This document shows, piece by piece, positions 32,062 to 64,000 of a stretch of DNA of 64,000 nucleotides. A program made the translations under genes and the position numbers. The stretch lies in NCBI GenBank assembly GCA_044892525.1, contig CM097885.1:2792001-2856000 (forward strand), written 5' to 3'. A model generated the notes under the pieces. That model ran no database searches. It saw nothing but the letters and a program-made list of their open reading frames with translations, and was not told the origin of the DNA. This stretch comes from Schmidtea polychroa. Its lineage: Eukaryota. Numbering within the stretch: the first letter of the stretch is position 1; each line of letters begins with the position of its first letter.

Positions 32062-32089
32062 GACAACTTTTTTGTGTTTCTGTATACAT

Positions 32090-34708: not shown

Positions 34709-34709
34709 G

Positions 34710-35275: not shown

Positions 35276-35370
<95 letters not shown>

Positions 35371-35758: not shown

Positions 35759-35819
35759 TACAACAAGAAGATTTAAAATTAAATTTAATGTCGGGCAATG
35801 AAGGATTAGCACCCATTGT

Positions 35820-36347: not shown

Positions 36348-36365
36348 TATTATTCATAGAGGTTT

Positions 36366-36992: not shown

Positions 36993-37097
36993 TTCAAAAA
37001 TTTTATAAATATATATATGTATTTGTTTATATTCAATGATTTAATGAACTCGTGCTCAATTTGTATATAAAGACAAATTTTCATAAATGATTTAATA

Positions 37098-37535: not shown

Positions 37536-37606
37536 TTGGTTAATTTATAATTGGTTATTGATTGATTTAAACAAACGGTTTGTGTTTAGAATTCATTTAT
37601 TTCACT

Positions 37607-38010: not shown

Positions 38011-38372
38011 ATGTTTTTAACAAATAAATGTTATTTAGTTTTCGTTATTTTGTTTTTGATATTTTATATATTTTGATAATAATAATAATAGTAAAAATAT
38101 TAATAATAATGAAACATATTAATAATAAATCTGAAAATAGAACATGTAATAATTAAAACACATAAATAATAAATCTGTAAATAGAACATATAATAATTAA
38201 AACACATAAATAATAAATCTGTAAATAGAACATATAACAAAACATGTGACAATGCAACATCAATGCATTTTGAATGCAATTTAAACAAAGACATGCTATA
38301 ATCTGATTGGTTGATAGGCATGAGTCAAAGGTATAAAAACCCTGTAACATTTAAATTTATTCATTATTCACG

Positions 38373-38783
38373 ATGACCAAGAAAATTTCAAGCACCGAAA
38401 AACCTAAAGAAATGGTACAACCATTTCAAATGTTCCACAACTACAAAATGTATTTTTTGAAAGAAGAAATCAATATGAAATTGGTTGCACCAGTCAAGCT
38501 AATTCCAACTAAATTTCAATTCTTATCCGGCACGCTTTCAATGATTGATGTCAAAACTATTGATGATGTTTTTAAACGGATAGATTCGAATCTATCGTGT
38601 AATCAACATGCATGGTTCAACAATAGATATGCAAGATTTTATGATGCTTTTGATGAAATCAGTTTCAAAGAAAATGAAAATTGGTATATAACAATTGCAA
38701 TCCAGGGATATAAAGTTGATAATAATGATGTATATTCTCCTATTTGGAAAATTATGTCTGCTAGACTTTCACAAATATTTTAA
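38373..38783 (+). CDS. Hypothetical 136-aa protein, possibly an OB-fold ssDNA-binding protein
   Basis: ORF with upstream CCAAT/TATA and downstream AATAAA; beta-rich aromatic C-terminus WYITIAIQG..YSPIWKI. The fold is inference. Confidence 0.5.
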   Translation: MTKKISSTEKPKEMVQPFQMFHNYKMYFLKEEINMKLVAPVKLIPTKFQFLSGTLSMIDVKTIDDVFKRIDSNLSCNQHAWFNNRYARFYDAFDEISFKENENWYITIAIQGYKVDNNDVYSPIWKIMSARLSQIF

Positions 38784-38910
38784 TGTTATATTTAATAAAT
38801 GTATCAGTCAGATTTGTTTTTTCTCTTTATTAATTGCAACATAAATTCAAATGACATGCAAATTTAACAAAGAAAATCTATAAACAAACTTATAATATAG
38901 TTTTAAAGTG

Positions 38911-39287
38911 ATGAAAATGACTGCAGAAAAAGGTTAACATGATTAATTAATTACCGAATTATTTATTATTTAGAATTTTTAATCAACTTTTTGTTGGAAA
39001 AGTTAGCAGAAATAGCTGGTGTGAAAATTGAGGACATATTATCTATTACAAATGCCTTAAATATCGGCTGGATAGTTGAGAGTCAAGATACAGGATTTGA
39101 TGATCAGGAAGAAGAAACTCAAGAAACTGATACTCAAGAAATTGATGAGGAAATATATGAACCTATAGATGAACCTATAGAGGAGCCTAAAGATGAACCT
39201 AAAGATAATATTACGAATGATTGTATTGATCATGTCGTTGAAAATATAATGAAATGCGGAGATGACGACTGCGAATGTGTTAATTAA
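38911..39287 (+). CDS. Acidic hypothetical protein, 2 exons (intron 38933-38973)
   Basis: MKMTAEK E|FLINFLLEK in-frame splice; E/D-rich EPID repeats; AATAAA overlaps the stop. Confidence 0.55.
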
Positions 39288-39364
39288 TAAATCTTAGTTA
39301 GTTAGTGTTTGTAAATTTATTTAAAATTTTATTTAAAAATGAAACAAAATAACTATATTAATTT

Positions 39365-41439: not shown

Positions 41440-42724
41440 TGTATATATAATATCCATAAAATATTAATATTTTTCAAAATCACTGAACCATAAGATCCCT
41501 CCAACAAAAAAATCACAATTGAGCAATGCTGCGAGAAAACTTATATGTATCAAATTTGATTCCGGCCAAAGCGTAAAAAAAATTGCTGCAGATCTCGTTA
41601 TGAACTATAAAACTGTTTATAGTATTATTAGCATTTACAAGACGACAGGAAGGATTGATAAAATGGAAGATAGAGGGTGCAAGTCCAAAAAATTGAGCGA
41701 AGAGCATTTAGTTTTTCTAAAAGAAAAAATTTCCGATGATTGTTCTACTCCGTTCAGAGGTATGAAAAGAGGTTTGAGTGAGTCTATGAATGTTAACGTA
41801 TCGTTGGCCACAATTCATAGGTCAATCAAAGACTTTAATTTTTCTTTTAAACGAGTAGCCTTAATTCCCGCTGCCCGCAACACTGCGGAAGCTATTGAGC
41901 GCAGGTATGAGTATGCCAATGAATATTTGGCATTAAACGAGGACCATGTCTTTTTCCTTGATGAAAGCGGTTTCAATTGCTCGATGAGATTGGGATATGG
42001 ACGAAGCGAAGTAGGGTCGCCTGCTCGCAAAGAAGTGAGAAGTATACGAAGTAAAAACTATTCAGTGTGCTCAGCAATCAGCAAAATGTAGATTTTGAAT
42101 TTTAAAGTTGTAGAAGGTGGATACAATGCAGAGATGTTTACAAATTTTGTCGCCCAATTTATAGGAAATCTACGATCGAAAGGAATATCGACAGGTACGA
42201 TTATAATGGATAATTGTACAATACATAAAAGTGTTGGCGTACGCGATTTGATCAACAATTCTGGATTTACGTTACGCTTTTTACCCTCTAATTCGCCGCA
42301 ATTAAATCCGATTGAAGAGTGTTTCTCGAAATGGAAATCAATTGTCAAATCGGCTAACGTTCTAAATGTAATCGAGTTGAAAAACGCTATTGAAATGGGA
42401 CACAATTCGATAACCACGGAGGATTGTATCGGATTTTTCAACGACACGAGAAGGTTTGCATTAAAGGCGGTAAGAAGAGAAGAATTCTGATTAAAAGTTT
42501 TAACTACCAATTTTTACTCTATCATGATTTCATTTAAAGTGTATATAATATTTTATTACCCATAAAAATTCTGAATTCAATTTAAAACAGTTCTGATTTC
42601 TATTAAAGAAATTCTGACTTCAATTGAAAAAAATTCTGATTTCATTTGAAAAAATTCTGATTTCATTTGAAAAAATTCTGAATTCATTTGAAAAAAATCT
42701 GATTTCAATTGAAAAAACCCTGTA
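41440..42724 (+). mobile_element. Tc1/IS630 element, left end replaced by the Polinton terminus
   Basis: Subterminal AAATTCTGATTTCA(A/T)TTGAA repeats at 42566-42716 ending CCCTG+TA. Confidence 0.7.
41519..42490 (+). pseudogene. Tc1/IS630-family DD34E transposase with one in-frame stop (42089-42091)
   Basis: HTH N-terminus; FFLDESGF, IMDNCTIH, LPSNSPQLNPIEE (34 residues between D and E). Confidence 0.9.
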
Positions 42725-45700
42725 TTATATTTGAACATTTAGCTAATGAAAAAGTGAATAAATTTATGAAATGTTACATTATTTAATATTAAATCATTTC
42801 AGTAGCTCTTAATAAAATATAACAAATTAAGTGAAGGTTTCAATGCCTTACGCCTTAGGGATTCATGCCATTTTGTATTTCATTGCAACCTTCTGTGGAT
42901 CTCAATTTGCTAATTCTGTCATTTTTATTGTTGACGCACAAAGATATAAATTATTTTCAGGTATTTCTTTTTCATTTATTTATCTTTTCCTATTGCGCTT
43001 ATGTGAAAATACGGAAAGATAAATTGCCTAAAGGTTCCTGATTAGATATTAGTTTGTGTGTATGTGAAACATTTTACATATTTTATATAATATATTTCTA
43101 TTTATTATTATATTAAATAAAATCAAAGACAGAAGGCAGATTTACTAATTGATAAGCGCAACTAAATATATTGCATAACATCACATATATATTTTGACCG
43201 TTTAGCAATCCCCTTCACGCTAGAAATCGTATTAATAACAACTAAATGAAAATAAGACAATTTTTAATAAAATCTTTTTTTTGGAAATATAAACATTTCT
43301 GTAAAAATGATCGAGTAAAGGAGTTGATTAAATGTGTTATTGAATTAGTCAAGTAGTATATAATGAGGACTCCAGGACACTTTCAAGGTCATGGAATATC
43401 AAGATCAAATATAGGTCAATTGAATCATTTATTATTATTATTATTATTTTATTTTTTTTTTTAAATTAACATTTTATTTAATTACTTCTTTTTAATTTTT
43501 TCTTTATAATTTTATTAATTAATTATTTTATGATGTTATATTTTAATTACTTACTTTAGTTAATTTTTAATTTATTACATTTAATTAATTAATTTGTTTT
43601 TTAATATTTTGTTTTAATTACTAACGTTATTTAATTATTATTATTATTATTTATTTTATTTATTTATTTTTTTTTTAATTTTACATTTACATTATATTCT
43701 AACAAGAACGTAAATTATAACAATAATATTTCAATTTGAATAAAATTTTAATTAGTAATTATTCAATTCGAATAAAATATGAATAAAATCCTAAGAAAAT
43801 TACGTTAACTGTATGAAAAATACAAATTTATCGTAAAAACATATGTGTATTACACACAACATACGAGACGTAATTTTCTTAGGATTTTATTCATATAATA
43901 TATAGATAAAATTTAATTTTCTATAAAATGGATTGATTAGAAATTATGTATCTTGTTTTGCGTGTAATACACACATGTTTTATGATAAATTTGTATTTAT
44001 TATACGTTAACGTAATTTCCTTGGATATTTATTCATATATTATATAGATAAAATTTAATTTTCTATAAAATGGATTGATCTAGAGTTTAAAATGTTGTAT
44101 TATTTTATTACTTTGTTGCAATATTTTTATAATCTTATAACAATTTGCTTAAATATCTTACATCTGGTGAAATATTTCCGAAATATGTTATTACTTTGTT
44201 GTAATTTACTGAAAGACTTCACAATTTATTACAATATTCTTTTTAATTTGTTGTCCGTCTTCGAAATAATGTATTGATTTGTCCCAATTAACATCATTAT
44301 TTTATTACTTTGTTGCAATATTTTTATTATTTTAGTTACAATTTGATAAATATTTTACAACTTTGTTGAAATTTTCTGAAATATGTTACTACTTTGTTGT
44401 AATATTTTCTAATCTTGTTACAATTTGCTTAAATATTTTACAACTGTTGAAAATTTATCTGAAATATGTTATTACTTTGTTACAATTTTATGAAAACGTT
44501 ATTACTGTTTTGCAATTTGATGAAAAATGATATTACTTTGTGGGTTCATCACATTATTTTTTATTAAATTATTATGAAAATGTTAAATAAGTCAACTTTA
44601 GCATCAAAATGTGTTTTAAAATATATTGAACTTTTAAAATACTGCAACGTAATGCATTTATTTTTCCTACCCCTTCCTTGATTTTGATTGGTCAGAATTT
44701 AATCATGTGTAATATATAAGCAGTAACTTTTCAAATGTTTGTCATTTAAACTTTTAATTTAACTTATATAAGTGAATAATTTTTTATTCTCTATCTAATA
44801 TTAATGATTATTTTCTTTTAGTGAACGGATGCAGTTTATATAAATTTTGTATTGCCGAAAGTCATGAAGATGTGGAGAACTGTAAATCAGTTACTCTACC
44901 TTATCGGGTTACATATGTCCGGAATGTCTCATTATATCACCAGGTAGGTGGTTAATGTTTGTACGACAACACGGACACCATCTTAGAAGATTCGAAGAAA
45001 CGAAGAGCAGGATGATCACTAAAAGTAATACTCTTTCTACTATTAACAATTATTAATTTTTTATAGTACAATCGAAAATGAACACATCATACGATCCTAA
45101 GCAGATTAAAGAATATGTTACAAGTTATGTTATTTAAGTTGTTTAATATTAATTATAAATATAGTTAGACCGTACTTGATTTATCCAAACTTCGCATGTA
45201 CCAATTTCAATATAAAGAACTACAGAGTTATAAAGAAGAATTCAATTGTCAAATTAATGTCGTAGCTGGTGACACAGATTCCTTCTTTTTAAAGTGTAAA
45301 AATGTAGATTTACGCTTACAACTATATCCAAAAATGATTGAAGATGGCCTCCTAGATACTTCAAATTATCCAGTGACCGATCCGTTGTTCTCTGATAAAA
45401 TCTGTTCTGTAATCGGGAAAGTTAAGGATGAGAATAAAGGAAATCAATATAAAGAATGGGTGTTTCTTCGACTTAAGTGCTACTCACTCCAAGGCGATAA
45501 AAACACTCTAAAAGCCAAAGGAATAAGACTTACAAATTCTAATATTACACATGAAGCCTATAAAAAAGTGTATACTGATGGTGGAACAGTGAGCATCCCA
45601 CAAAAAAGAATAGGAAGTGTCAATCATCAGTTGTATACTTTCATGACAGAAAAACGAGCTCTCCAATGTTTGGACGATAAAAGGTATTGGTACAATTGTA

Positions 45701-46369
45701 ATGAAAGTTATGCCTACGGTCACTATAAGATTCACCAAATGCATATTGCAACTGCTATGTCTAGAAATGAATGCAAATCGAAACAAGCACTTTAACAATT
45801 AAATTTATGTGAATAATAAAATATATATTGTGAATAATTTGTCTTCGTTAATTAAAATATGTTTTATCATTTAATAATTCATTTGTCCAATTATTTTAGA
45901 TAATTAGTTTCAAGTAAGAAATATTATTTTCGTGTTTATTTTATTTATTTATTTATTTTTTCCGGTTTATCTAAAATTACATCATCGTTTTATTTTATAA
46001 TAAATTAAATAATTTCTAATTAAAATTTTATTCGAATTGAATAATTACTAATTAAAATTTTATTCAAATTGAAATATTATTGTTATAATTTACGTTCTTG
46101 TTAGAATATAATGTAAATGTAAAATTAAAAAAAAAATAAATAAATAAATAAATAAAATAAATAATAATAATAATAATTAAATAACGTTAGTAATTAAAAC
46201 AAAATATTAAAAAACAAATTAATTAATTAAATGTAATAAATTAAAAATTAAATAAAGTAAGTAATTAAAAATATAACATCATAAAATAATTAATTAATAA
46301 AATTAAAGAGAAAAAAAAATAAATAAAATAAATAAATAGAAGTAATTAAATAAAATTAAAATTAAAAAA

Positions 46370-46402
<33 letters not shown>

Positions 46403-47515
46403 TAAATAGCGAAGGTAATTAAAATAAAATATTAATAAACTAATGAATTAATTAAATGTAATAAATTAAAAATTAACTAAAGTAAGTAATTAAAATATAA
46501 CATCATAAAATAATTAATTAATAAAATTATAAAGAAAAAATTAAAAAGAAGTAATTAAATAAAATGTTAATTTAAAAAAAAAAATAAAATAATAATAATA
46601 ATAATAAATGATTCAATTGACCTATATTTGATCTTGATATTCCATGACCTTGAAAGTGTCCTGGAGTCCTCATTATATACTACTTGACTAATTCAATAAC
46701 ACATTTAATCAACTCCTTTACTCGATCATTTTTACAGAAATGTTTATATTTCCAAAAAAAAGATTTTATTAAAAATTGTCTTATTTTCATTTAGTTGTTA
46801 TTAATACGATTTCTAGCGTGAAGGGGATTGCTAAACGGTCAAAATATATATGTGATGTTATGCAATATATTTAGTTGCGCTTATCAATTAGTAAATCTGC
46901 CTTCTGTCTTTGATTTTATTTAATATAATAATAAATAGAAATATATTATATAAAATATGTAAAATGTTTCACATACACACAAACTAATATCTAATCAGGA
47001 ACCTTTAGGCAATTTATCTTTCCGTATTTTCACATAAGCGCAATAGGAAAAGATAAATAAATGAAAAAGAAATACCTGAAAATAATTTATATCTTTGTGC
47101 GTCAACAATAAAAATGACAGAATTAGCAAATTGAGATCCACAGAAGGTTGCAATGAAATACAAAATGGCATGAATCCCTAAGGCGTAAGGCATTGAAACC
47201 TTCACTTAATTTGTTATCTACCCACTAGTATACTGTGAGCTTACCGTGCCAATATTACTATGCCCCTTGTGTATATTACACAATTATCGGGTAGCTGATG
47301 GTGACGTAATCATGCGCATTTTTATGTAACCGCTGGAATTTACATAAACCATGTGATCATCATATGTAATCATCTAGTTTGGTTTGACAGTTTTAATGAA
47401 CACTTGTCGGGATTTTAGATCTTTTTAAGAGCTACTGAAATGATTTAATATTAAATAATGTAACATCTCATAAATTTATTCACTTTTTCATTAGCTTAAT
47501 GTTCAAATATAATAT
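42723..47515. repeat. Large foldback: inverted arms ~42723-43778 and ~46025-47515
   Basis: Identical 63-aa ORFs on opposite strands (42831+ and 47014-); the right arm is interrupted at 47220-47418 by a copy of 7512-7702. Confidence 0.9.
45168..45795 (+). pseudogene. C-terminal fragment of a Polinton pPolB (polymerase motif C onward)
   Basis: VLDLSKLRMY, AGDTDSFF, LDTSNYP, IGKVKDE, LRLKCYS, KAKGI, KRAL..DDKRY, AYGH. Confidence 0.88.
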
Positions 47516-48754: not shown

Positions 48755-50235
48755 AGTGCACACCCGCATTATCCCATAGGCACAATTGGCACAGTGTCTA
48801 GGGCCTACAAACTGTAAATGGCCTACAAAAATGTATACATATTATTATTTACGAAAAGTTGATATAATAAATATTCAACCAAAGCATGAAAAGAAAAACT
48901 TCACTTAATCCAAAATAATTCAAAATTTATTTTCAAAAAACCAAAAAAAAATCATTAATTTAGTAAACAGTTTATTTAATTATTACCTAAACTAACCTTC
49001 CTACATTTTTATTGGTGAATTCGACAATAACATATTCGAAACTAATTTCTCGCATTAAATCACTTTCAATTGATAAAAGCGTAAGAGATGATAATCGTTC
49101 CTGTCCCATAGTTGATCGGAGGCAATTTTTTATTCTTTTAAGCTTTGAAAAGCTCCGCTCCCCTTCCACATTCGTTCCAAATAGCGATAAATAAATTCTT
49201 AACACAATATTTACATTAGGAAAACTGGTAACTAGTTTATCATTTATTTGTACAATTATCATTTCCTTCACTAATTTTTTATTCTCATACATTTGTGAAA
49301 ATAATAAAAACTCGTCAACAAATGCATCTTCAACATCTGAAGAATATATTTGCACTAACTGGTTTGCTTTCGAAACTATTTCATTATTTGTTTAACTTCT
49401 GTCCACCAAAAAATTAAACCTTTCATATAACATTTGATATGCTCCAAGTCGCTTACGCATTTCAATTATAAGTCTATCTACTATTATATAAAAAGATTCT
49501 ATACGAAATTTGTCACTTGCACTTAGCCTCAAGCTAGGATCTGTGTTGTCTAAAACTTCATCAAAAAATCTATGTCGTGTTCGTTTACGTTGTGTATATT
49601 CTTTATATTCGGAAGATGTAAGCTTTTTTGCCATGGTTTCAAATTTATCAAACTCTAAACGAATATCATGAAAGTAAGTTATGAGAGTATCAAATAATTT
49701 TACAATATTGCATAAATCTGTCAGTCTCCTGCAAAGCTTTATTGACAATATTAATATTTTGTAATAAATCATTCCAAATAACACACATCAATGCTGTTTC
49801 AAAATTGTTCAGCTTTTTTTATTAAAGATTTCGCTTCCTGCACAGCCACAGCAGGTTGACGTTCGCTTTCAGTTATTTCAAACAATGCTTGTTGAATTTC
49901 TGAATAATTCATAAATAGAGCCTTAGTAAAATCATGTCGAATAGACCATCTGGTTTCTGATAAATATTTAACAACACAAGTATTTTCTTTCATATTCTCT
50001 TTAAATATGGACCATCTTTGTGGTGAAGCACAAAAAAAGTGTATATTGCTTGTAAAATTCCAAAAAACTTTACTGCTTCAAAGCAAAACTCCACAGCAGT
50101 TGAACTTACCAAATTAAGACTTTGGGCAGCACATGGAACGCATTCAGCCAGACTATTTATTTCTCTAAATCTAGCTTGTACACCTGCATATATGCCGCTC
50201 ATATTACTGGCGTTATGATATGATTGGGGGCTGCA
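48755..50235 (-). pseudogene. hAT (Tip100/ZMYM1-like) transposase pseudogene with 3' end
   Basis: NASNMSG...GVQ, VPCAAQSLNL, SETRWS, GERSFSKLKRIKN.LRSTMGQERLS.L.LLSIE; several frameshifts. Confidence 0.88.
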
Positions 50236-51863
50236 ATTTCCAATACTTATGTTATAATGAAATCAGCAGTGAATTGATATGCAGAATTTGCAAAGTATGT
50301 CGAATAAATATTATAAGAATAGTTTCTAGGAGTGGTTTGAGCTGACGCCGAAGCCTCATAAATATTAGCTGAAGTTGTTCTGGCAGTATCGGAAGAATCC
50401 TGATTATGAACGGAATTGTGAGCAGCGATATTAGTTTGAGATAATAACATTGTCGATGACCTTTGTAGATCTGAGCTTTTATGGTATGTAGGCATTGCCT
50501 CATGTGATCTTGCCGAGAATATATCATCAACTATCACTCCAACTCTCGCTGAACTTTCTTCATTTGGTTTAATATTGCTCCATAAACTATAAATCAAATT
50601 TTATTGTTTAACGCTTGTGAAAAATGAAAACTTTTTCTTATAATCTTTTTCATGCAATAAAATTTCACTTTGGAAAATGAGAGGATCAATGCTCGTTAGT
50701 AGGTCGTCTGTGTTATCGGATTTGCTGTCACTAATTCTTAATTATTAATTTTTAATTATTAAAATAATAAAGTTTTACTCCATTTAAATTTTAAAAGTTC
50801 AGTTGCTATAAATTATAACCTTCTCTCAGATTAACTGATTAAAACAAGAATTCAATATTAAATTGAATTAAATAATTTTTAATGGCACTCTTAGAATCTT
50901 ATATTAATAAATTAAAACTGTATATTTTTAGTTTGTCTTTAAAATAAGTTTTAATTTAAATTATATTTATTAAATAGTGCTGACAAGTATTTTGGAAATG
51001 AAAGGAAATTTATGGTAGCTTGTATATATATATGATTGTGATATCCTAAATTTTATATTCAACAAGTGTATAAGATTATTTATTTTACTAAGTTTTGTAA
51101 ATATATCTCATCTATTATCAAGGCTTAGTTATACAGCAAAAATAAAAAGGCAAGTAAGGTAAGAAATCATATTAGAAATAAATTTAAATAAATCATATTG
51201 TTAATATTAATTAAAACAAATTATATATTAGTTAAAATAATATTAGTAAATAATCATTACGATAATTTATAACAATGTTGAGAACTTATTTTGCACAAAT
51301 ATTCGCATTATTAATGTAAATTATTATAATTGCACGAATATTTACATATAAGCTCTCATAAATTTTAGTCAAGCACCAAAAATCATTGCCACTTAAGTTG
51401 TATTTTAAAAGTAAATCTTCAAGAGACAATAACACCAGAGACAGACAGAAAGGTCTCATACGTATTAAAGGCGCATGAAAACATAGCATTCATTATATAC
51501 ATTGCAACAATACACAATATACTTTCAATGGAATTTTGTGAATATTGTAAAGATAAGCGATAAAGTAGCACATTGCATAGAGTAATTTTTATTTAATAAA
51601 CGTTTTATAAATACCGTCTTTTTTGACTTCTTTTTTTCATATAGAGCACCAGTGAAAGTTGGGACCTCAAATAAATATACTTATTGGTCTTATTGATCTC
51701 AGATTCTCAATTCTAATATTATGGTTTGTAACAATTGGAAAAAATCCTACACTTGTCTCGTTTACATCCCTTCTTCATGATCATTATTCATATCTCTTCA
51801 AGTTTCATTTCATAACACCGTATAATCATTTATCAGCTCTAAATGATTGTTACAAGCGACGTT

Positions 51864-52560
51864 AGTAAATAGTTATGTGTACTCCAGATCCATGTGCACT
51901 CCAGATCCAGATACACCCCTATTTTTTTAAAAATACCCCCCACTTTTTTTAATTTTCAAAATACCCCTCCACCCCTAATTTCCTTTTTTTAAATTACAAA
52001 AAATTTTGTTTAAAAAATTACATAACAAATACATATTACGTAATAAAGGCATATTATATAACATAAGACATATTATGTAACAAATATATATTACATAATA
52101 AAAACATTTTAACAAAGACACATGACTCATCATACTTTTTAAATATATTACGCTGAGGTATTTTAAAATTTAAATATATTTTAAAAACTTATTTTGACGC
52201 TAAAGTTGACAGAATAAAATTATTGCACCTACTTTGCATTATTATTATTATTATCATATATAGTCTGAGTCTATACGACAAGATATGCTGTCCCCGTAGG
52301 GGTACAACTCACAAAGGTAATGGTCACAAGGGTACTGCTCACACTCAACATGTCGTAAATTATTTTCAAATACAAGTTCAAAGTATTATTGTTATTTTCA
52401 TATATAGTCTGAGTCCATCCGACAAGATATTCTGTCCCCCTAAGGGTAATACTCACAAAGGTACTGCTAAAAATATTCAAGGCAAAACTTTAACATATTA
52501 TTACACACACAATGTATAATAATATTATTAGTGTTCTAGTGGGCATATGGTTTTGATCAT
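51864..52560 (+). mobile_element. Older Polinton-type terminus and subterminal repeats
   Basis: AGTA..ATGTGTACTCCAGATCC ATGTGCACTCCAGATCC AGATACACCCC, homologous to the 53841 terminus; ~90-bp repeat copies at 52262 and 52405. Confidence 0.55.
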
Positions 52561-52581: not shown

Positions 52582-53654
52582 TGTTAGGGATAGGCCTGGA
52601 GCCTTAATGACAAAATAAGTAGAAATTACTATAATTAGAAATACCATAAATAAAAATAATAAAGTATTACCGGAAATAAAAGATAGGTTTTGTTAATTAC
52701 TATTAATAGAATTAAGTAGCATATAGGAATATTTGATAATACTGTTACTATATATAGTAATTATAAAATTGCTATTAATATAATAAATAATTAAAATATA
52801 ATATAAATACCGGTTCAAAACCAGAACCAGGGAGAGAAAAATTGGAGACGATAATTTGAGGACGATAAAAACTGAGATAATAATATGAAAGTTAAATTGA
52901 GGACGATAGATTGGAGAGAATAATACCTGGAAAATTAGTTAATTGTCACATCGAAGAAACGTGATTAAAGAATCACCGAGACAACTGAAATTAAGGAATT
53001 TGACAACAGTCGCAAGTGTTCAAATTAAACTTAAATATCTCATCTCACAAGACGAAATTCCGGATCAAATTTTGGATTGGTTACAGTGTTGAAAATTGTC
53101 TATAAATTGCCAACGAGAATAAATAAGAGTAAGAAAATCTCTAAAGAAAAATTGTAACAGATTTGTGACAGAAGAAGGAGCCATTAAATTTAGTCAAGGT
53201 AAAAAGAGTTCATTATTTGTTTTGTGTAAGGATAAATTATTTTCCTTGTGAAGAGAATTAAATAAAGCGAACACAAAGCACAGATAGCGGCTTTCGTGTT
53301 ATCTGGTTGCCCCAAAATCAACCCTCTTACTGAACCACCATCATTCCAGTTTATTTAGCGATCGTTGTGCTACACAGGAGCCATTGATCTCTTGCAGGCT
53401 GTGATAAACAGTAGGGATTAATATTTTGTATTTTATTGCTTGTATTCTTTGCACATTAATTGTAAAACAACTTTGTAAATTATTGAATACATTTTTGTAA
53501 AAAGAGAGAGTTTGTTTTTTTTTAATTCAGTGATTTAAACTTACACACGCAATCACATTTAAATATAACATATTTATATTTATTTATTTATCTTAGTTGA
53601 ATTATTGGAGTCATTTGTGTTGAGATCTGTAGTCCCCATTTTTCGATCTTAACA
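52582..53654. mobile_element. Solo LTR (Gypsy-type)
   Basis: TGTTAGGGAT...ATCTTAACA ends; 4-bp TSD CTAT at 52578-52581 and 53655-53658. Confidence 0.8.
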
Positions 53655-55818
53655 CTATCATTATATTATATTGTCTGATGGTTCATTTTTAAACCCACTG
53701 CAAGACACTTTGAATGAGCTATAGATATATTTATTATCATTATTACTTTTAAAGATATTAATAATTGAGGACCAGCATCTTTTTCAAAGTTCATTTATTA
53801 TTATTTTTCAAAATATTATTAGTGTTCTAGCGGGCACATGAGTAGTATGATATGAGCTCCCCAGACCATGAGCTCCCCAGACCACATATACCCCCCCGGG
53901 AAAAATTTTTTTTTTAAATTTAATTTTTTGTTTTAATTAATTGGTCCAGAGGGCTCACACTTTTTTTCATCCCAAAAATTAATATTCCCACCAACGGATT
54001 TTATTGAACGATACCTCATCTTAAAGCTCAGTTCAAGACCTTTCGAATGAGCTATAGGTATCTTATATATCTTTAATAGTTTTAATGTTATTAACAATTG
54101 ATGACCACCATCTTTTCAAAGTTAAATTATTATTATTTTTCAAAATATTATTATTTTCAAGGTCAAGGTCAAGGTCATTTAATTTTTCAAGCTCAAGGTC
54201 AAGGTCATTTTTTTTTAAATTTTATTTTTTTTTAATTAATTGGTCCAGAGGGCTCACACTTTTTTTCATCCCAAAAATTAATATTCCCATCATTCTATTT
54301 CATCGATCGATAGCTTATTTTGAAGCCCAGTGCAAGATCTATCTTTTGATATATAAATATTATTATTATTATCATTATTATTGGCAAAATTATTAACGTT
54401 TTCCCGAGACCATTTTCAATGTCATTTGACTATTTTATTATTATTTTTCAAGGTCATTTATTATTTTCAAGGTCATTTACTTTTTCAAGGTCATTTAATT
54501 TTTCAAGGTCATATTTTAAAAATTAAATGTACAGAGTTCCCGCCAACAAATATTATAGCTCATTTTAAAACTCGGTCCAAGACCTTTCGATTGATCTATA
54601 GAAGGTATCATCACCATTAATATTGACAAAGTTATTAACATTTAACCAAAATCATTTTCAAGGTCATATAATTATTATTTTCAAAAATATTATTAAGTGG
54701 TCTGGCGGTGACCAGGTTTTCGTTTGCCCAAAAGTTATCGTTCCCATTATCCGAATTTATTAATTGATAGCTTATTTTGAAGCTTAGTGCAAGATCTATC
54801 TGCTAATGTATAAAAAATTATCATTATTATATATTATTATTGGCAAAATTATTAACGTTTTCCCGAGACCATTTTCAATGTCATTTGACTATTTTATTAT
54901 TATTTTTCAAGGTCATTTATTATTTTCAAGGTCATTTACTTTTTCAAGGTCATTTACTCCGAGTTTATCCGACAAGATATTCTGTCCCCCTATGGGTACT
55001 GCTCACCAGGGTACTGGTCAAAAGTGTACTACTCACACTCAACATGTCGTAATCTATTTTCAAATACAATTTCAAAGTATTATTATTATTATTTATTATT
55101 ATTATTATTGAAAAATCTAAAATATGGTTCACACACACACACAACCCATTAACAATTATTATTATCAATATTAGTGAAAAACCTAAAATATTTTTTACAC
55201 AACCCATTAAACTTTATTATTATTATGATTATTATTATATATACTCAGAGTTTATCCGAAAAAATATTCTGTCCCCCTATGGGTATTGCTCATATGGGTA
55301 ATGGTCAAAAGTGTACTACTCACATTCAACATGTCTTAAAGGGCATAATATACTTATTATTAAATTCTGACCAACTTAAATCAATGAAAGGGTATGACCA
55401 AAAGGCATTAATCAATTTGATATAAGGCAATTTTAGTATTGCATTTAGGTGCATTTTACTGCCATTCAGTACAGCAATAATTTTTCCACAACTCATATAA
55501 CATCAGCAGCAGCAGCGATGGCGGTTTTCTCGTCGGTTCCATTCGTCATAGGAGCGCTTGATTTGTTGAGGCGATTTGTCAGCGCTTATATTCGGGTGGA
55601 TTTTGATTGGATTATTTCTTTCACATTAATTATTAATTTAATTATAATAAATATAATGATAATATCGGATGGAAGGCGCGGGGGGGGGGGGGGAGAATGA
55701 CAATGATTATCACAATTATTAGCTCATATAATAAATCAATAATAATAATAAGGCAAATAATAAATCAGATCAAAAGCCAAAATAAATCAATTTTTTATTG
55801 AAATGTTTTTTAAATTTG

Positions 55819-57230
55819 TCATAATTTTTCAATTCTGCACCTGAGCAGCAATTTGTCACTTTTGGCTGCGAATTGACCGATTGAGTAATCGCAAGCATAA
55901 ATCCAAATTGGATCATTTCTGTCACCTGACGGTTTCCCCCATCCGACTGCATCAGGCCAATCTGAATATTTCCTTGACTCACTCATATAAATGCTGCCAT
56001 TTGCTGGATCGATCACATCGATTGCCACCGATTGATTGAACGGCCAATCCAATTGCTCATCATTTGCCCCACGCATCACACAGAAACAAACATCAACCCG
56101 ATTACCCCTAATCCACACCGCCAAGCACATTTTGTAACCGATTGGCCCGGAATAAAATGCCTCGCTGTAAATCAATTCATCTCTCTTTTGTTGTGAAAAT
56201 TTATCGATTTCCCATTCAAAAAATCCATAATTTATATATTTTTCGCTTCCTAATTTTGTTTCAACCTGCCGAATTTCATTGGCGCATTTCGCCATTTCAA
56301 GCTGCAACTGAATCTCAAATTCAAACATTTCAATAAATCAATAAATCACCTTTTCATTCTCCCGTTGCTCGTATTTCTCTTTCATCTCATCAATTTGCTG
56401 TTGACATTTTGATTCAATCACCTCAATTTGATGTCTGATCTGCTTTGCATCAATAACAAATCAATAACAAATCAAATCAATAATCAAACTTGATTGATTG
56501 ATCCAATACTTGTCTCCATCTCCATTCTCAATGAGCGATTCTCATTCTTCAATGCCACCATTTCCTCATTTAATTCTTCTATTTCTACTGTGTTCTCCGC
56601 CTCTTTTCTTTCAATATTGCCCAGTTTCTCCTACAATCAGAAATATCAATAAATTAATTGCAAATAAAATTTTACATTGATATTAGTAATTTCCACACGC
56701 AATTTGGCATTCTCCTCTCTCATAGCCTGCATCTCATTGCACAAATTGCTGATCTGATCAATCAGTAATTTGCTATGACCTTCAGTGTTCTCATTGAGAT
56801 GGACTCTCATTTCGTCCTTCTCTACACCATTCATTTCGCATCCAATCCTATTGAACGGGCATCTTATTGGCTGCTTGGTGCATGTCCTCATGTGGCTCTC
56901 CATCACTTCTAATTCAACTTTGAATTGACAATTTCGCATTGGGCATTTCACTATCACTTCTGAAATCCTTAAATTGGCTACATGATCTTCAGAAACATCT
57001 TTATTGAAATTTATCATTTTCTTTCCGCAATATTTTGCTGCTCCTGGACAGAATTTATTCTTTCCATCCAAATAAAGCTCAATGCAATCAGAACAAAAGC
57101 GGCAACCGCAAGGAGCATTGCAAGCCCTTATCATTAAACATTTGCAAATTCTGCATATCAATTCATTGCTGATTTCACTATCAAATTCAAATTTATTTCT
57201 CTTCATCATTTCAGATACGCTTGCAAACAT
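55819..57230 (-). CDS. TRAF-like adaptor/E3 ligase, copy 2; same 4-exon structure as copy 1
   Basis: RING CRIC..CGCRFCSDC..CP, TRAF fingers, coiled coil, MATH; introns and UTRs alignable to 27690-29470. Confidence 0.9.
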
Positions 57231-58484
57231 TTTATCTGAAATTAACAAAATAATCAAAATATTTCAACATTTTACAACATAAATCATAAATCATACTTAT
57301 TATATTAATTATTTCCGCTGACGTTTACAATTTCAATATTTATAATTTGTATTTGATGTAGATAAACAAACATTTTATAAATATTGTATTTTAGCTTTGA
57401 GCGCAATTCGGAATATTATTAATGTTAATTTTCAGCGTTTTTCTCATTTGTTTTAAATATTATAAAATAATTTAAATTGGAAAGAAATGGAAAGTTAAAT
57501 AAAATATTAAAAATAAAAAAGATATTTCAATGATCCAAAATTTAAAATATAAATTAAAATTTAATCTTAATCTTGAATTAAAAATTTTATGAAATAATTA
57601 AAATAAGTCAATTGGAAAATGAAAATTTATAATAAAATAAATAAATCAGTGTAAACATTGGTTGCTAAGGGGAAATTAGGTCCACCAAATCAGGCACGAT
57701 GACTCATCTATTTATTATTTGTGATTTCATATTGATTTGTTATAGATATTCCTCTCGGCTCGGTTTCCTAGGTACTCGGGCGCAATCAATCAGATCGAGG
57801 ATTTCCAGGAGAAATTAGGGAGAAAATGAGCGCAATTGCAGCAATCGAAATCGGAAATGGAAGAATTTAAACAAACGACCCGATCGGTGGAGCTCTATTA
57901 TTATAGGTGATTTGTATTTTAATTTATTGATTATTTTGGCGCGATTTCATTGGCTCGCACTTTGATTTTATTTGCCCGCATCCTGATGTCGATAATATTT
58001 GCATTTAATCAATTATTTTCATTGAATATTTCATCAATTATTTTTATTGATTATTTCATTAATTATCTCATTTAATCAATATTTTTATTGATTATTTTTA
58101 CCAATATATTTGATTATTTTTATCAATTTTTTTGGTTATTTTTATCAATTTTTTATTAATTATTGAGCGATTGAGGAAACCGATCGCAATTGGAAATTAT
58201 ATTCGAATGGTCAGTGAGAGAATGCGAATGTCTAATTGCAAAATAGCAGGCTAGGAAGTGTAAATAATTAGTAAAAGTTGTTAGTAATTCAAAAAATAAT
58301 AATATTCATTCAAAGCATGTGCAATAATTATGTCTTTGTTAATTAAGTCAACTTTAGCGTCAAAATAAGTTTTTAAAATATATTTAAATTTTAAAATACC
58401 GCAACGTAATATATTTTGGTCATACCCTTTCATTGATTTAAGTTGGTCAGAATTTAATAATAAGTATATTATGCCCTTTAAGAC

Positions 58485-61213
58485 ATGTTCTCAAATTCGC
58501 TCATTTTTGTTCAAAACAGTCACGGTATTCTTGAAAGATGTGACACTGGAAATAAATTAACAATGGGTGGTCTTGCATCCATACATGTTGTTGGTCTGAG
58601 CTGTCGATTTATTTTAGAAATAGGTATATTAAAAACATTTAAGGTATCATTCAGTAAAATAATATAGTATTTTTGAGTATTTTTTAGTAAATTATTAAAT
58701 AACAGTATTTTGATATATCAATAAAGACCATATACTCCGAGTTTATCCGGCAAAATATTCTGTCCCCCTATGGGTATTGCTCACAAAGGTACTACTCACA
58801 TTCAACAGGGTATATTAATCAGTTATAAATTCTTAAGTAATTTAGTGAGATGATCGTGAATATTTTAAATGTAACTTTACACTTATTTCGAGTGACTAAT
58901 TTATTGGTTAACTTTGTAGTCATTTAGAGCAAAAGGTAATTTATTCATCTAATGTTCGTTACAATAGTTAATAATATGAGAAAAACATGGTCATTTTTCA
59001 TTGATAATTTTAAATTCTTTATCATTGGAGTAAATTTGTTTGAGGCAAAAATAATTAAAGGAGTCATAATAGAAATATGGTTATCATTTAACCAATTAAG
59101 GGGCTTATTAGTTAGAAATATAGGGTTATAATTATTTGCTAATTTAATGAGATGATCATTGGGCGTAGTATATATTTGCGAGAAATTTAAGATGTTTGAG
59201 TAACCAAAACATGGATATTTTGTGCGATCCATTTATGAATATTGGTTAATTTAGTCATTAAAATAATAATATAATAAGGTAATTTAGGAAAATATCATTT
59301 ATCCACCCGATAACAATATTCCTTCAATAGATTAACTGATATTCAACCTATTTAATTTCTGGAAATCTAATTAAAATCATAAATTTCCTTCAAAGATCAC
59401 TTTTCTTTAGTTGTTTTTCAATTCTTTTAAGTTAATATTTCTCAAGCTTTGTCAACTATATCACCAAAATGAATAAAATAACTTCTTAAATAAAAATATT
59501 TTAAAGCAATAACCATTGATATCAATTAATTCTAAAGATTTCAAATATCTCATTGTCAAAACCAAGTAAATTGATCATTACCCATTAATAAAACCGTGGA
59601 TAATTAATAAAAACTGGTTCTGAAACATAAATTACTGTGGAATAACATTCATCACAACCTCTAAAACGATATAATTTCACAGGAACTATTCATAGCTGAC
59701 TATTTCCCTTGAAAATTTGATATTTTACCAATAAATATTCAAAACATTAACCGATCCCTCACCAAATATTTTTACCCCTGTAAACACCTTAAATTGTATA
59801 TATTACCATCTTAACCTTCACTAAATCCAACCGAATATAATTTCACCCACTTGAGCCCTTTAATATATCTTAAAATCCATAGAAAATTCTTCAAAATATG
59901 AATTTTATTTAATTGTTACAAACATTCTTCCATTGAAATAATTTAGTTGCTAAATTCAAAGAGCTCACTAAAAGATCAAAATTCGCTAAAATGAATATTT
60001 CCTACAAATTTTTCACCACATTCACCATCAAATACCTAACTAGAGATGAAATATATTGATTGATCATCGAATCGAATAATTATAGCCATTATAAAATGAT
60101 ATATCTTTCAAACTAAATCACAAATTTCAGTATATTTTACAATAATTTTCAAGTAGATTTCAAATATATCATCATCATGATAAAATTAACTGGTTTCAAC
60201 TTTAGATTTTCAATATTTTAAAGTTCATCAATGTGTAAATATTCTTAGAAAATATATGAAAAAATTATTAAGTCAAATTCAATATCATCATCATCATCAT
60301 CATCATCAAAATTTATCCTATCACTTGATTATTAACCTCATTAAAAATTAATTTTTAAATAAAATTTAAAAACAAGTCAATGAAATATGGCAAATTATCA
60401 AGAAATTAATTAAATTTGTCATAGAATTAACACTAAACCTTAAATTTTTAAATATTCTTTCAATTAACATGAAATTCACAAAAAATGTCAGTAAAATCTC
60501 GTTAACTCTAAAAAATTACCATGAATTTAATGCCAAATAATAACCAAATATTTGCTTAAATAAAATCATTAAAACACACCAGTACCTTTGCGAGCAGTAC
60601 CCTTACGACCAATACCCTTACAAGCAGTACCCATGGGGGGGGGGCAGAATATCTTGTCGGATAAAACTCAGAGTATATATAATAAAACGAATTAACAATA
60701 ACTCCATCAAATTGAATCAGTCAAATTATCACAAATTTTAATAAAAAATCTTATTCTAAAATGGTAAGCAGCGTAAAATCGAAAGATAATTTTAATAACA
60801 CAGAGTTAAAATTAACAATATTATTCTCAGGCGGTAAGAACCATCATTATTCTATGATTAATTAATAATGAAATTCAAAAAGGTGAAAATAAGGGTTTTT
60901 GAATTAATCATTAATGGAAAATAAATGTAAATATACCGAGAAGTGGCATAGATTGATATATATATATATATATATATTGATATATCAAAATACTGTTATT
61001 TAATAATTTACTAAAAAATACTCAAAATTACTATATTATTTTACTGAATGATACCTTAAATGTTTTTAATATACCTATTTCTAAAATAAATCGACAGCTC
61101 AGACCAACAACATGTATGGATGCAAGACCACCCATTGTTAATTTATTTCCAGTGTCACATCTTTCAAGAATACCGTGAATGTTTTGAACAAAAATGAGCG
61201 AATTTGAGAACAA
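58485..61213. repeat. Nested inverted repeat: ~58485-58720 versus ~60977-61213, with inward-facing copies of the ~90-bp Polinton repeat inside
   Basis: Near-identical 60-aa ORFs on opposite strands; ~90-bp repeat at 58737 (+) and ~60580-60672 (-). Confidence 0.85.
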
Positions 61214-62639
61214 ACGATTAGATGGCGATTAACATCTGGCCACAACCCTAACAACATGAAAATTAAGATTTTAATTATTGAATTCGTTATTTTCTGCCTG
61301 GAAATACTAACAGAATATTTTTTAATTCAAAGAATCTTCATTATAAATTTTTGAAATTAAAAAATTAAATGAAGGATATATTAGTGTACATAAAATTATA
61401 ATATTATATAAAATTATACTGTATAATAATGTTTAAATATGCTTAAATAACTAAATTGTTTAAATATTTTTAAATAACTAAATTTAAATTATTTAAAAAT
61501 AATTCTGATATAACTTTATTTCTCTCGTTTTAGTATCCATAAAGTAAGTAAATAAAGAATTTACTACAATATTTTAATTGTTTTCCTTAGTAATGAAGAA
61601 AATGAATTATATGATTATGAAGAAGATGAACCAGACAAAATGGTGAAACACTAAAAGACTTATGTTCTGGATTTAGAGATTTCTTATAAAGACATGAATT
61701 ATTGGATTATGAGGAAGATGGACCAGACAAAATGGTGAAACACTAAAAGACTTATGTTCTGGATTTCTTAAATGAATTAGCTGATTGTGGGTGTCCTTCA
61801 ACATGAATGTTTACTTAAATTATGTAAACTTTTAACGAATGTCAAGAAAAATGGGAAAAACCGATGTTTTAGCAATTAAGTAAAGTACCCGTCATACTTG
61901 AAGAATATTATTATTAATGTAAGACATGAATTAATTCTTTAAAATATATATATTATATTTAGGTATCTGTGTTTTATGGTGGCAATTGATAAGAAATTAT
62001 ATTGATAAAGTATACCACAAATAACAGTTGCCTAATAGTCAGACAGAATTTAATTTTTGACGATAAAATGTTAGATAACATATGTAAGTTAATTGCTTTT
62101 AAATCAATATAATTTTTAGCAATGATAGTTGACACCGTATCAGAAACTAAGAAATACGTCCAATTTGCAAGATGTATTCCAAATGGCCCGATGGAGATGA
62201 TAATTTTCAGATAGATTACCAGCAGAAGAGCGAGAAAAATTTGTAAATTAAATATAATAGGGTTGGGTGGGTCCTCTGTATCCCTTAATTAATATATATT
62301 TACAAGCTGATCGTCGTGGTGGGCGGTTGTAATCCAACTAGTGGGAGGCCTCTGTAAATATATATTTGTGTTAGTGAAAACATTAACTAATTTGGTTATA
62401 GTGCCAATGACGCATGTATTTTGAAATTATACGTTTCGAATGTGCTGGTAGTTGACTACCCATGCTAGGCGTAATGTTCCGTACGGAAAGCTATAATGCC
62501 CAGGTTCTTCTGACCCCACTTGGGGGAATTATCGCTCCTTATTGAAAATTTCATGTAAAGGCTAACACAGAATACTGCAAACATATAATAATTCTCTACC
62601 CCATAACTTAGTGTGTACAAATTATTTTAGGTTTTTGAC

Positions 62640-62679
<40 letters not shown>

Positions 62680-62798
62680 GTTTAATGGGGTGTGTGTGTG
62701 TGTAAATAATATTTTAGGTTTTTCACTAATATTTGCAATAATAATTGTTAATGGGTTGTGTGTGTGTGTGTAGAAAATATTTTAGGTTTTTAATATTG

Positions 62799-62848
<50 letters not shown>

Positions 62849-63206
62849 TCCCGCGCGTGTTACTTTGAAATAATACTTTGAAAGAAAATATTGAAAATTT
62901 AAAAAATAATAATAATAATATTTATGCAAAGCATGTGCAATAATTATGTCTTTGTTAAATAAGTCAACTTTAGCGTCAAAATAAGTTTTTGAAATATATT
63001 TAAATTTTAAAATACCGCAACGTAATATATTTTTGTCATACCCTTTCATTGATTTAAGTTGGTCAGAATTTAATAATAAGTATATTATGCCCTTTAAGAC
63101 ATGTTGAATGTGAGTAGTACACTTTTGACCATTACCCATATGAGCAATACCCATAGGGGGACAGAATATTTTTTCGGATAAACTCTGAGTATATATAATA
63201 ATAATC

Positions 63207-63277
<71 letters not shown>

Positions 63278-63394
63278 GTTTAATGGGTTGTGTAAAAAAT
63301 ATTTTAGGTTTTTCACTAATATTGATAATAATAATTGTTAATGGGTTGTGTGTGTGTAAACCATATTTTAGATTTTTCAATAATAATATTAATA

Positions 63395-63462
<68 letters not shown>

Positions 63463-64000
63463 TAATAATACTTTGAAATTGTATTTGAAAATAGATTACG
63501 ACATGTTGAGTGTGAGTAGTACACTTTTGACCAGTACCCTGATGAGCAGTACCCATAGGGGGACAGAATATCTTGTCGGATAAACTCGGAGTATATAATA
63601 ATAATAATTATAATTATTATAATAATAATAATAATAAATGACCTTGAAAAAAATAAATGACCTTGAAAAAAAAAAGATCACTTAATTAAAACAAAATATT
63701 TAATTAAAAAATAACCTTGACCTTGAAAAAAATAAATGACCTTGAAAAAAAAATAAATGACCTTGAAAAAATAAATGACCTTGAAAAAGGAAATGACCTT
63801 GAAAAAAAAGATCACTTAATTAAAACAAAAAATTAAATTAAAAAATGACCTTGACCTTGAAAAAAATAAATGACCTTGAAAAAATAAATGACCTTGAAAA
63901 AATAATATTTTGAAAAAATAAATGAACTTGAAAATGGTCTCGGGAAAACGTTAATAATTTTGCCAATAATAATATATAATAATGATAATTTTTATACATT

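What the first reader, a model, noticed from the sequence alone, without database searches (positions are those of the whole stretch)
53841..64000. A host-type TRAF gene sits inside a Polinton TIR pair with no viral genes: candidate Maverick-driven cargo system for immune-adaptor amplification
Seen: an AGTAGT terminus at 53841, subterminal arrays, and a ~600-bp arm (54805-55398) whose inverted partner runs from 63035 off the window edge. Between the arms there is no recognisable viral ORF, but there is an intact, intron-containing TRAF gene with its 5' flank and 3' UTR. Known: Polinton TIRs are the cis elements for protein-primed replication and integration; nematode Mavericks carry cargo genes; TRAFs are strongly expanded in planarians. 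Inference: non-autonomous Polinton shells mobilised in trans may be copying TRAF genes, which would offer a mechanism for the expansion.
Basis: partly seen in the sequence, partly recalled or inferred. Interest (0 to 1): 0.88.

Follow-up and report, generated by a model that had tools for sequence, protein, structure and literature searches.

The report
TRAF gene inside a gene-less Maverick shell
A 10.8-kb virus-derived transposon shell with no viral genes really does enclose one complete host TRAF immune-adaptor gene, but it is a one-off copy and does not explain why this genome has so many TRAF genes.

Summary
Extending the contig shows the predicted right end (...CATATCATACTACT) at extended coordinate 64,638. 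It is followed by CACATG, the same 6 bp that precede AGTAGT at 53,841.

The element is 10,798 bp with inverted arms of about 1.6 kb. Its end motif occurs about 950 times in the genome and also bounds a 16-kb Maverick copy that holds the viral-type ORFs. Inside our element there are no viral genes.

About 73% of it is non-coding sequence shared with sister shells. The only private part is 2,882 bp (55,404-58,285). This is a host TRAF gene unit: 4 exons, 427 aa, RING, TRAF zinc finger and MATH domains, plus flanks. It is joined through three junctions found nowhere else in the genome.

The amplification idea is not supported. 142 of 150 TRAF MATH-exon hits lie on one chromosome, almost all in two end clusters with segmental-duplication spacing. 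Only 1 of 40 DNA paralogs and 1 of 93 exon hits lies between a pair of element ends, against 0.85 and about 2 expected by chance. None of 5 sister shells carries foreign DNA.

The likeliest origin is a single repair patch copied from the surrounding TRAF cluster. Whether TRAF was aboard at integration is unresolved.

The parts
53665..53840 (+). Left flank. It is a remnant of an older Maverick-type subterminal repeat, and its last 6 bp (53835-53840, CACATG) are the left copy of the target-site duplication.
   Evidence: direct homology to units inside the arm; left and right flanks are collinear with arm unit 54520-54830 across the join. CACATG lies on both sides.
53841..55404 (+). Left terminal inverted repeat. 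It contains the terminal 27-mer (53841-53867), subterminal arrays, and two copies of a unit of about 100 bp (54952-55052 and 55239-55339).
   Evidence: inverted match to 63023..ext 64638; 70-84% identity to the TIR of a 16-kb gene-bearing Maverick; counts of the terminal motif.
55402..58285 (-). Private 2.88-kb host segment. It is a TRAF gene unit made of a 3' flank (including a hAT-like fragment, 55402-55583), the gene itself, and about 1 kb of 5' flank.
   Evidence: 89.7-93.7% identity to TRAF loci L029-L032 over 2.09-2.75 kb; it is the only segment of the element (positions 1564-4445) not shared with 5 sister shells or with the gene-bearing copy.
55819..57230 (-). TRAF coding region. Exons are 57230-56676, 56630-56490, 56442-56350 and 56313-55819. 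Introns are 45, 47 and 36 nt, all GT-AG. The predicted product is 427 aa.
   Evidence: gene model. For the last intron, acceptors 6 or 12 nt further downstream would also keep the frame; zf-TRAF 27.7 bits (cut-off 27), zf-C3HC4 18.6 bits (below cut-off 21), TRAF-mep_MATH 61.8 bits (cut-off 27.4).
58286..58489 (+). Piece P. It is a 0.2-kb copy of the innermost TIR sequence, lying in right-arm orientation on the inner side of the TRAF unit.
   Evidence: 6 mismatches in 198 against 62908-63105; 0 mismatches in 76 against the reverse complement of left arm 55328-55403; the junction with the next block (58486-58489) is unique.
58486..61212 (.). Central non-coding block typical of the family, bounded by a 238-nt inverted repeat (58486-58723 and 60975-61212).
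   Evidence: 2 mismatches in 238 between the repeat arms; 80-94% identity to internal parts of sister shells.
61213..63022 (+). Non-coding internal sequence typical of the family, in the right half. Its mirror image is missing from the left half, where the TRAF unit and P now lie.
   Evidence: collinear with sister shells at 84-96%; no match to the gene-bearing Maverick.
63023..64000 (-). Right terminal inverted repeat. It runs off the window to extended coordinate 64638 (L011:638) and is followed by the right TSD copy, CACATG, at L011:639-644.

Best explanation
The element (53841..ext 64638) is a non-autonomous derivative of this genome's abundant Maverick/Polinton family. It has the same terminal 27-mer, homologous TIRs and a 6-bp TSD, but no viral genes.

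It was integrated as a unit into an older Maverick TIR remnant. I infer that the integration machinery was supplied in trans by gene-bearing copies.

The TRAF gene is a single private patch. 2,882 bp copied from a member of the surrounding TRAF cluster, plus a 0.2-kb inverted copy of the element's own inner TIR (P), replace about 1.8 kb of canonical left-half sequence. The patch is joined through three illegitimate junctions, two of which overlap by 2-4 bp.

This anatomy fits one break-repair or template-switching event (inference). I think it most likely happened while the element sat inside the TRAF cluster. On that reading TRAF need never have travelled with the shell.

The TRAF family itself grew by local tandem and segmental duplication, not by Maverick transposition.
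For: Shown:
- Matching termini and TSD.
- Flanks contiguous in a homologous repeat unit.
- The terminal motif occurs 366+394 times at up to 3 mismatches, or 463+484 times with a degenerate pattern, against 0 for controls.
- The motif also bounds a 16.1-kb copy with its own TSD (GTAGCC) and the long ORFs. The window's Maverick, which matches that copy at 78-92% over 31548-39288, carries Peptidase_C5, rve and Pox_A32-type ATPase matches.
- 5 of 8 other end pairs examined have perfect 6-bp TSDs.
- The 4.7 kb at 58286-63022 is shared with ORF-less sister shells.
- The only private segment is 55404-58285. Ours is the 1 of 6 shells that has one.
- That segment is homologous throughout to host TRAF loci.
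- Junctions J1, J2 and J3 are each spanned by only 1 of 40 scored genomic places, which is ours. J1 overlaps by 2-3 bp and J3 by 4 bp.
- P is identical (0/76) to the inverted left arm.

Local origin:
- All 40 DNA paralog places lie on contig C1 at 2.1-40 Mb.
- The far-upstream part of the unit matches only four loci, at C1:2.13-2.97 Mb, within 0.72 Mb of the element.

No role in the expansion:
- 142 of 150 MATH-exon hits are on C1, almost all at 2-17 Mb and 257-268 Mb.
- Repeated 94-kb and 256-kb spacings between hits with equal scores.
- 1 of 40 and 1 of 93 inside end pairs, against 0.85 and about 2 expected.
Against: The relative timing is not clean.
- The TRAF unit has no close donor. Exons differ by 6.7-8.6% from the five paralogs examined, with dS 0.10-0.13. 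The upstream part is at best 85-86% identical to any other locus.
- The element's internal inverted repeats differ by only 0-3%.
- If the arms were identical at integration and evolve neutrally, the TRAF copy is older than the integration. That would mean it was aboard.
- The in-situ reading therefore needs either loss of the donor paralog or arm-to-arm gene conversion. Neither was tested.

The introns and 3' flank differ by only 1.4-2.9% from the four paralogs outside the window (the window's own paralog shares only part of the 3' flank), so the clocks disagree among themselves.

Both termini share a private base found in none of the other 758 motif hits. This hints at a source lineage absent from the assembly, and it weakens 'no sibling copy' as an argument.

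The search counts are lower bounds, because only 40-150 candidates were scored per search. The end-pair list covers only C1 below 45.4 Mb and exact matches to a degenerate 24-mer. The template-switch mechanism is inferred from anatomy alone.
Confidence: 0.58

Rival explanations
1. True cargo. The TRAF unit was captured earlier, at another site in the cluster, and was inside the shell when Maverick machinery replicated and integrated it at the present site.
For: - The TSD bounds the whole composite.
- Sister shells of 6-13 kb sit at other loci with their own TSDs, so shells of this size are mobilised.
- The TRAF copy is more diverged from every examined paralog (dS 0.10-0.13; upstream at most 86% identical) than the arms are from each other (about 2%).
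- The cargo position, next to the inner edge of the left TIR, and its size and introns recall the 2-5-kb cargo region of nematode Mavericks (bioRxiv 10.1101/2022.07.12.499685, passages read).
Against: - No second copy of any junction.
- No TRAF copy above 93% identity.
- The element lies inside the TRAF cluster, 26 kb from a paralog. By my estimate, the clusters cover only about 3% of the genome. A transposed copy landing back inside them is unlikely unless reinsertion is local.
Confidence: 0.28
2. One reading: non-autonomous Maverick shells repeatedly copy TRAF genes and drive the family's expansion.
For: One TRAF gene does lie in a shell. TRAF and MATH-domain genes are reported as greatly expanded in planarians (PMC6109357, passages read). 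No call checked that this genome is a planarian's.
Against: - 1 of 40 and 1 of 93 TRAF places lie inside end pairs, against 0.85 and about 2 expected.
- Most TRAF paralogs are hundreds of kb from any element end.
- Element ends occur on all four large contigs, while 142 of 150 TRAF hits are on one.
- 0 of 5 sister shells hold foreign DNA.
Confidence: 0.03
3. Assembly artefact: the TRAF unit was joined into the repeat by a mis-assembly in a repeat-rich region.
For: The surroundings are highly repetitive. No independent read or contig bridging the three junctions could be shown (see Tried and rejected).
Against: Three separate junctions would have to be wrong. The structure between them is coherent, and P is an exact inverted copy of the adjacent arm. 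The flanks and TSD are consistent with a single insertion.
Confidence: 0.05
4. Chance juxtaposition: a resident TRAF gene flanked by two independent TIR fragments.
For: TIR fragments of this family are scattered through the window (52141-52473, 58712-58801, 60574-60640).
Against: - Both ends carry the same private variant of the 27-mer. They are the only 2 hits with 0 mismatches among 760.
- The identical 6-bp TSD, and flanks that rejoin into one repeat unit.
Confidence: 0.01

Closest known systems
Autonomous Maverick/Polinton elements (self-synthesising DNA transposons)
   Same: The 5'-AG...CT-3' termini, the long TIRs with subterminal arrays, and the 6-bp TSD. I recall these hallmarks from Kapitonov & Jurka 2006 and Pritham 2007; PMC6431247 cites both papers, but the passages read describe only the encoded genes, not termini or TSD. 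The terminal 27-mer and TIR homology are shared with a 16.1-kb copy in this genome that holds the long ORFs.
   Different: No polymerase, integrase, protease, ATPase or capsid-type ORF lies inside. The interior is non-coding family sequence plus a host gene.
Cargo-carrying Mavericks of nematodes (wasp/krma cargo; bioRxiv 10.1101/2022.07.12.499685, passages read)
   Same: An intron-containing, host-type gene of about 3 kb placed directly inside the left TIR.
   Different: The nematode elements are largely complete Mavericks. Their cargo recurs in many copies and species. Here the shell has no viral genes, the cargo junctions are single-copy, and nothing indicates transfer.
Gene-capturing non-autonomous DNA transposons (Pack-MULEs, Helitron captures; reviewed in PMC6431247, passages read)
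   Same: A transposon shell holding host DNA acquired through illegitimate junctions.
   Different: Those elements usually hold gene fragments, and acquisition of full-length genes is described there as exceptionally rare. Here the shell holds a whole gene with both flanks, in a different superfamily.
ORF-less palindromic sister shells in this genome (e.g. C1:9.51 Mb, 12.3 kb; C3:95.3 Mb, 13.0 kb)
   Same: The same termini and the same internal non-coding blocks at 80-96% identity, with 6-bp TSDs.
   Different: They are 97-100% covered by one another and hold no private segment. Ours has lost about 1.8 kb of the left half and gained the TRAF unit plus P.

Membership tests
Maverick/Polinton-derived element (non-autonomous) | Termini shared with gene-bearing Mavericks of the same genome | tested here: met
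   The terminal 27-mer matches, within 3 mismatches, the ends of the 16.1-kb copy at C1:13025143-13041237. The arms align to that copy's TIR at 70-84%.
Maverick/Polinton-derived element (non-autonomous) | 6-bp target-site duplication | tested here: met
   CACATG lies on both sides, and the flanks rejoin collinearly. 5 of 8 other end pairs also have perfect 6-bp TSDs. The other 3 have flanks that are reverse complements of each other.
Maverick/Polinton (autonomous) | Encodes protein-primed PolB, rve-type integrase and the capsid, protease and ATPase module | tested here: not met
   In the tblastn of 18 ORFs, only one ORF that overlaps the TIR hits the element.
Cargo-mobilising element (cargo shown to move) | The same cargo junctions at two or more loci with different TSDs | tested here: not met
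   Each of the three junctions is spanned by 1 of 40 scored places, which is ours. Only the best candidates are scored, so weaker copies could be missed.
Cargo-mobilising element (cargo shown to move) | Empty-site or presence/absence polymorphism between strains | not testable with these tools
   Only short unitigs could be laid. No second assembly is on hand.
TRAF protein family | RING, TRAF-type zinc finger, coiled coil and C-terminal MATH domain in one open gene | tested here: met
   Pfam hits on the exon ORFs (the RING hit is below its curated cut-off). The four-exon model is open for 427 aa. The coiled coil is inferred from the sequence only.
TRAF protein family | This particular copy is expressed | tested here: inconclusive
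   See Tried and rejected. Nothing specific to this copy could be shown.

The most novel reading that the evidence does not exclude
A gene-less Maverick shell picked up a complete, promoter-bearing immune-adaptor gene and was then replicated and integrated in trans with the gene aboard. If so, planarian-type Mavericks, like nematode ones, could ferry whole host genes. Even non-autonomous shells could then act as vehicles for dispersing immune genes or transferring them between genomes.
Probability: 0.25. Interest if true: 0.7.

Novelty: new variant of a known kind. Interest (0 to 1): 0.4.

Why it matters
Host-gene cargo in Mavericks has so far been described for largely complete elements in nematodes. 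I found no paper describing a gene-less Maverick shell that holds a whole host gene. My searches were made, and I saw listings plus the passages cited.

This case gives a cleanly bounded example, with TSD, private junctions and sister shells for comparison. That makes the question 'was the gene aboard when it moved?' directly testable with population long-read data.

It also removes an attractive but wrong explanation for the TRAF expansion. In this genome the family sits in two terminal clusters on one chromosome and shows segmental-duplication spacing.

Tried and rejected
1. Public runs: no RNA holder is listed. 14 rows from 6 studies hold part of the stretch, and none holds half of its words or more.

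2. Laying 4 runs at 97% likeness or more:
- Only short contigs were shown, the longest about 230 nt.
- None could be shown to bridge 55402, 58285 or 58489, so the assembly is neither confirmed nor questioned.
- The two runs guessed to be RNA have far more depth over the exon bins than over the upstream bins. One has a contig with a 61-nt skip (57235 to 57297) whose ends read GT..AG on the minus strand, and the other has poly-T loose ends near 55777.
- Paralogs are locally more than 97% identical, so none of this is specific to this copy.

3. Dating the capture from divergence. The clocks disagree (exons 7-9%, introns and 3' flank mostly 1-3%, upstream 6-20%, inverted repeats 0-3%), so I abandoned ordering the events.

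4. Looking for the window Maverick's own terminus near 29.5 kb. No 27-mer within 5 mismatches exists in the window apart from our two ends.

5. Rfam scan of 53000-64000: 0 matches at gathering score.

I replaced it with the position lists.

7. Earlier findings of this scan: nothing on record.

8. Nested insertion as an explanation for 58486-61212. Removing that block does not restore a canonical sequence, and there are no termini, so I rejected it.
Full report
**What is there**

The window is G000:C1:2792001-2856000. I fetched the next 10 kb as L011. Extended coordinates are 64000 plus the L011 position.

The left end reads CACATG|AGTAGTATGATATGAGCTCCCCAGACC at 53835-53867. Its exact inverted counterpart...GGTCTGGGGAGCTCATATCATACTACT|CACATG, lies at ext 64612-64644. 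The element is 10,798 bp.

When the two flanks are joined with a single CACATG, they align without a break across the join to one of the element's own subterminal units, 54520-54830. The target was therefore a continuous, older Maverick-type TIR remnant. Everything between 53841 and 64638 is secondary to that site.

**Which family it belongs to**

- The terminal 27-mer occurs 366 times forward and 394 times reverse at up to 3 mismatches. The reversed control gives 0.
- A degenerate 24-mer gives 463+484 hits against 0.
- Plus/minus pairs are mostly 12-17 kb apart.
- One such pair, C1:13025143-13041237 (16.1 kb), has the TSD GTAGCC on both sides, 1.16-kb TIRs, and ORFs of 761, 551, 427, 377 and 360 aa.
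- The window's own Maverick (31.5-39.3 kb) matches that copy at 78-92%. It carries Pfam matches to adenovirus-type protease, rve integrase (below the curated cut-off) and Pox_A32-type ATPase.
- A 427-aa ORF of that Maverick has at least 98 open copies at 97-100% identity. Pfam gives it no name. Calling it capsid-like would be my recollection, not a result.
- Our arms align to the 16.1-kb copy's TIR at 70-84%.
- Of 8 other end pairs examined, 5 have perfect 6-bp TSDs. The other 3 have flanks that are reverse complements of each other, which means they lie inside larger palindromes.

**Interior of the element**

No viral gene is present. Five sister elements of 6-13 kb have the same ends, have few or no ORFs of 150 aa or more (at most two each, none matching a viral gene), and have long palindromic halves. 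They share our 58286-63022 at 80-96%. In an all-against-all comparison those five are 97-100% covered by the other elements compared. Ours is 73% covered, with exactly one private stretch of 300 bp or more: element positions 1564-4445, which is window 55404-58285.

That stretch is homologous throughout to host TRAF loci. It matches three loci over 55402-57478/57564 at 91.5-93.7% and a fourth over 55630-58281 at 89.7%. It holds a four-exon gene with GT-AG introns of 45, 47 and 36 nt and an open 427-aa frame. Pfam finds zf-TRAF, RING (below cut-off) and MATH.

**Anatomy of the capture**

In the sister shells the left half mirrors the right half. In ours the mirror image of 61213-63022 (about 1.8 kb) is missing. 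In its place lie the TRAF unit and piece P (58286-58489). P is a copy of the innermost TIR sequence in the opposite orientation to the left arm. It shows 0 mismatches in 76 against the inverted left arm and 6 in 198 against 62908-63105.

The three junctions are:
- J1 at 55402/55403, with a 2-3-bp overlap.
- J2 at about 58281-58291, in low-complexity sequence.
- J3 at 58486-58489, with a 4-bp overlap.

Each is spanned by only one of 40 scored genomic places, our own. The other places match one side or the other.

Three private illegitimate joins, short overlaps and an inverted self-copy are what a single break-repair or template-switching event would leave. This is my inference, not a demonstrated mechanism.

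**Does this explain the TRAF expansion?**

No.
- The 40 best DNA paralog places (83-93% identity) are all on C1 between 2.1 and 40.2 Mb. Repeated 94-kb and 256-kb spacings between hits with equal scores indicate segmental duplication. I used the 40 rows with E=0 and dropped 16 lower rows, which are fragments of the same or partial loci.
- By my count of the listing, 142 of the 150 scored MATH-exon hits are on C1: 93 below 45.4 Mb, 3 near 63.6 Mb and 46 at 257-268 Mb.
- From the position-sorted list of ends on C1 below 45.4 Mb I formed 40 plus/minus pairs.
- 1 of 40 DNA paralogs lies inside a pair, and it is ours. Random placement predicts 0.85.
- 1 of 93 MATH-exon places lies inside a pair, against about 2 expected.
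- Most paralogs are tens to hundreds of kb from any end.

**Was TRAF aboard when the shell integrated?**

Unresolved.

For acquisition in situ:
- The element sits inside the TRAF cluster, 26 kb from a paralog.
- The far-upstream part of the unit matches only four loci, all within 0.72 Mb.
- The composite is single-copy.

For 'aboard':
- No donor is close. Exons differ by 6.7-8.6%, dS is 0.10-0.13, and the upstream part is at best 85-86% identical.
- The element's inverted repeats differ by 0-3%.

Against using these as clocks: the introns and 3' flank differ by only 1.4-2.9% from the four paralogs outside the window, and palindrome arms may be homogenised by conversion. Both ends share a base that none of the other 758 motif hits has. 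This suggests a source lineage missing from the assembly.

I put in-situ capture at about 0.55-0.6, cargo aboard at about 0.25-0.3, and an assembly artefact at about 0.05.

**Comparison with what is known**

- TRAF and MATH expansion in planarians is published (PMC6109357, passages read).
- Mavericks are annotated in planarian genomes (bioRxiv 10.64898/2025.12.11.693146, passages read).
- Our case shares the position and nature of that cargo. It differs in being a gene-less shell, single-copy, and without any sign of transfer.
- My searches showed no description of a host gene in a non-autonomous Maverick. I saw listings only, plus the passages named above.
- No call verified that this genome is a planarian's.

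**Verdict**

This is a new variant of a known kind, of moderate interest as a clean and testable single case. It is not a mechanism for TRAF amplification.

Noticed in passing
window 55402-57604 compared with L029-L032 and window 27556-29760: TRAF coding exons differ more between paralogs (6.7-8.6% mismatches; dS 0.10-0.13; dN/dS 0.51-0.67) than the introns (1.6-4.7%) and the 3' flank (1.4-2.9% against the four paralogs outside the window). This could reflect diversifying selection on the coding part, or conversion or constraint on the non-coding parts.
   Followed up: partly
window 27556-31444: A second apparently open TRAF paralog (+ strand, 27806-29472) is 91-94% identical to ours, introns included. 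It lies just outside the TIR-like left end (29660-31444) of a Maverick copy (31548-39288) that lacks the polymerase region. No terminal 27-mer is recognisable there.
   Followed up: partly
L020+L021, L022+L023, L024, L025, L026: Non-autonomous Maverick derivatives of 6-13 kb without viral-type ORFs (at most two ORFs of 150 aa or more each). Several are near-perfect palindromes with halves of about 6 kb, and their internal non-coding blocks are absent from the gene-bearing copy. Such long mirrored halves could arise by snap-back replication errors; that is speculation.
   Followed up: partly
L025, L027, L028: Three end pairs have 6-bp flanks that are reverse complements of each other rather than direct repeats (CTTATT/AATAAG once, CAGTAG/CTACTG twice). 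The ends there sit inside larger inverted duplications.
   Followed up: no
window 55402-55583; L011 1130-1311; window 8766-8857 and 16517-16608: A hAT-like fragment forms the 3' flank of the TRAF unit. Its first 129 bp (55402-55530) are 96-98% identical at 16 other loci, most of them beside listed TRAF paralogs, and 91% at two more. One of those loci lies about 500 bp outside the element's right end in inverted orientation, with no TRAF beside it.
   Followed up: partly
window 50254-50294: A 41-bp piece of TRAF exon 1 (95% identity, + orientation) lies beside remnants of a hAT transposase (48987-50600; Dimer_Tnp_hAT match).
   Followed up: no
L011 4810-10000 (ext 68810-74000): Another left-end-like motif (AGTAGTAGGATGTG) is followed by family arrays and internal blocks. 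It looks like a further shell starting 4 kb to the right of ours.
   Followed up: no
window 42819-43689 and 46347-47217: An 871-nt inverted repeat (97%) brackets an ORF fragment (45169-45795) that matches the 551-aa ORF of the 16-kb Maverick copy at 60% over 186 aa. A Tc1/mariner-type transposase remnant lies next to it at 41468-42490.
   Followed up: no
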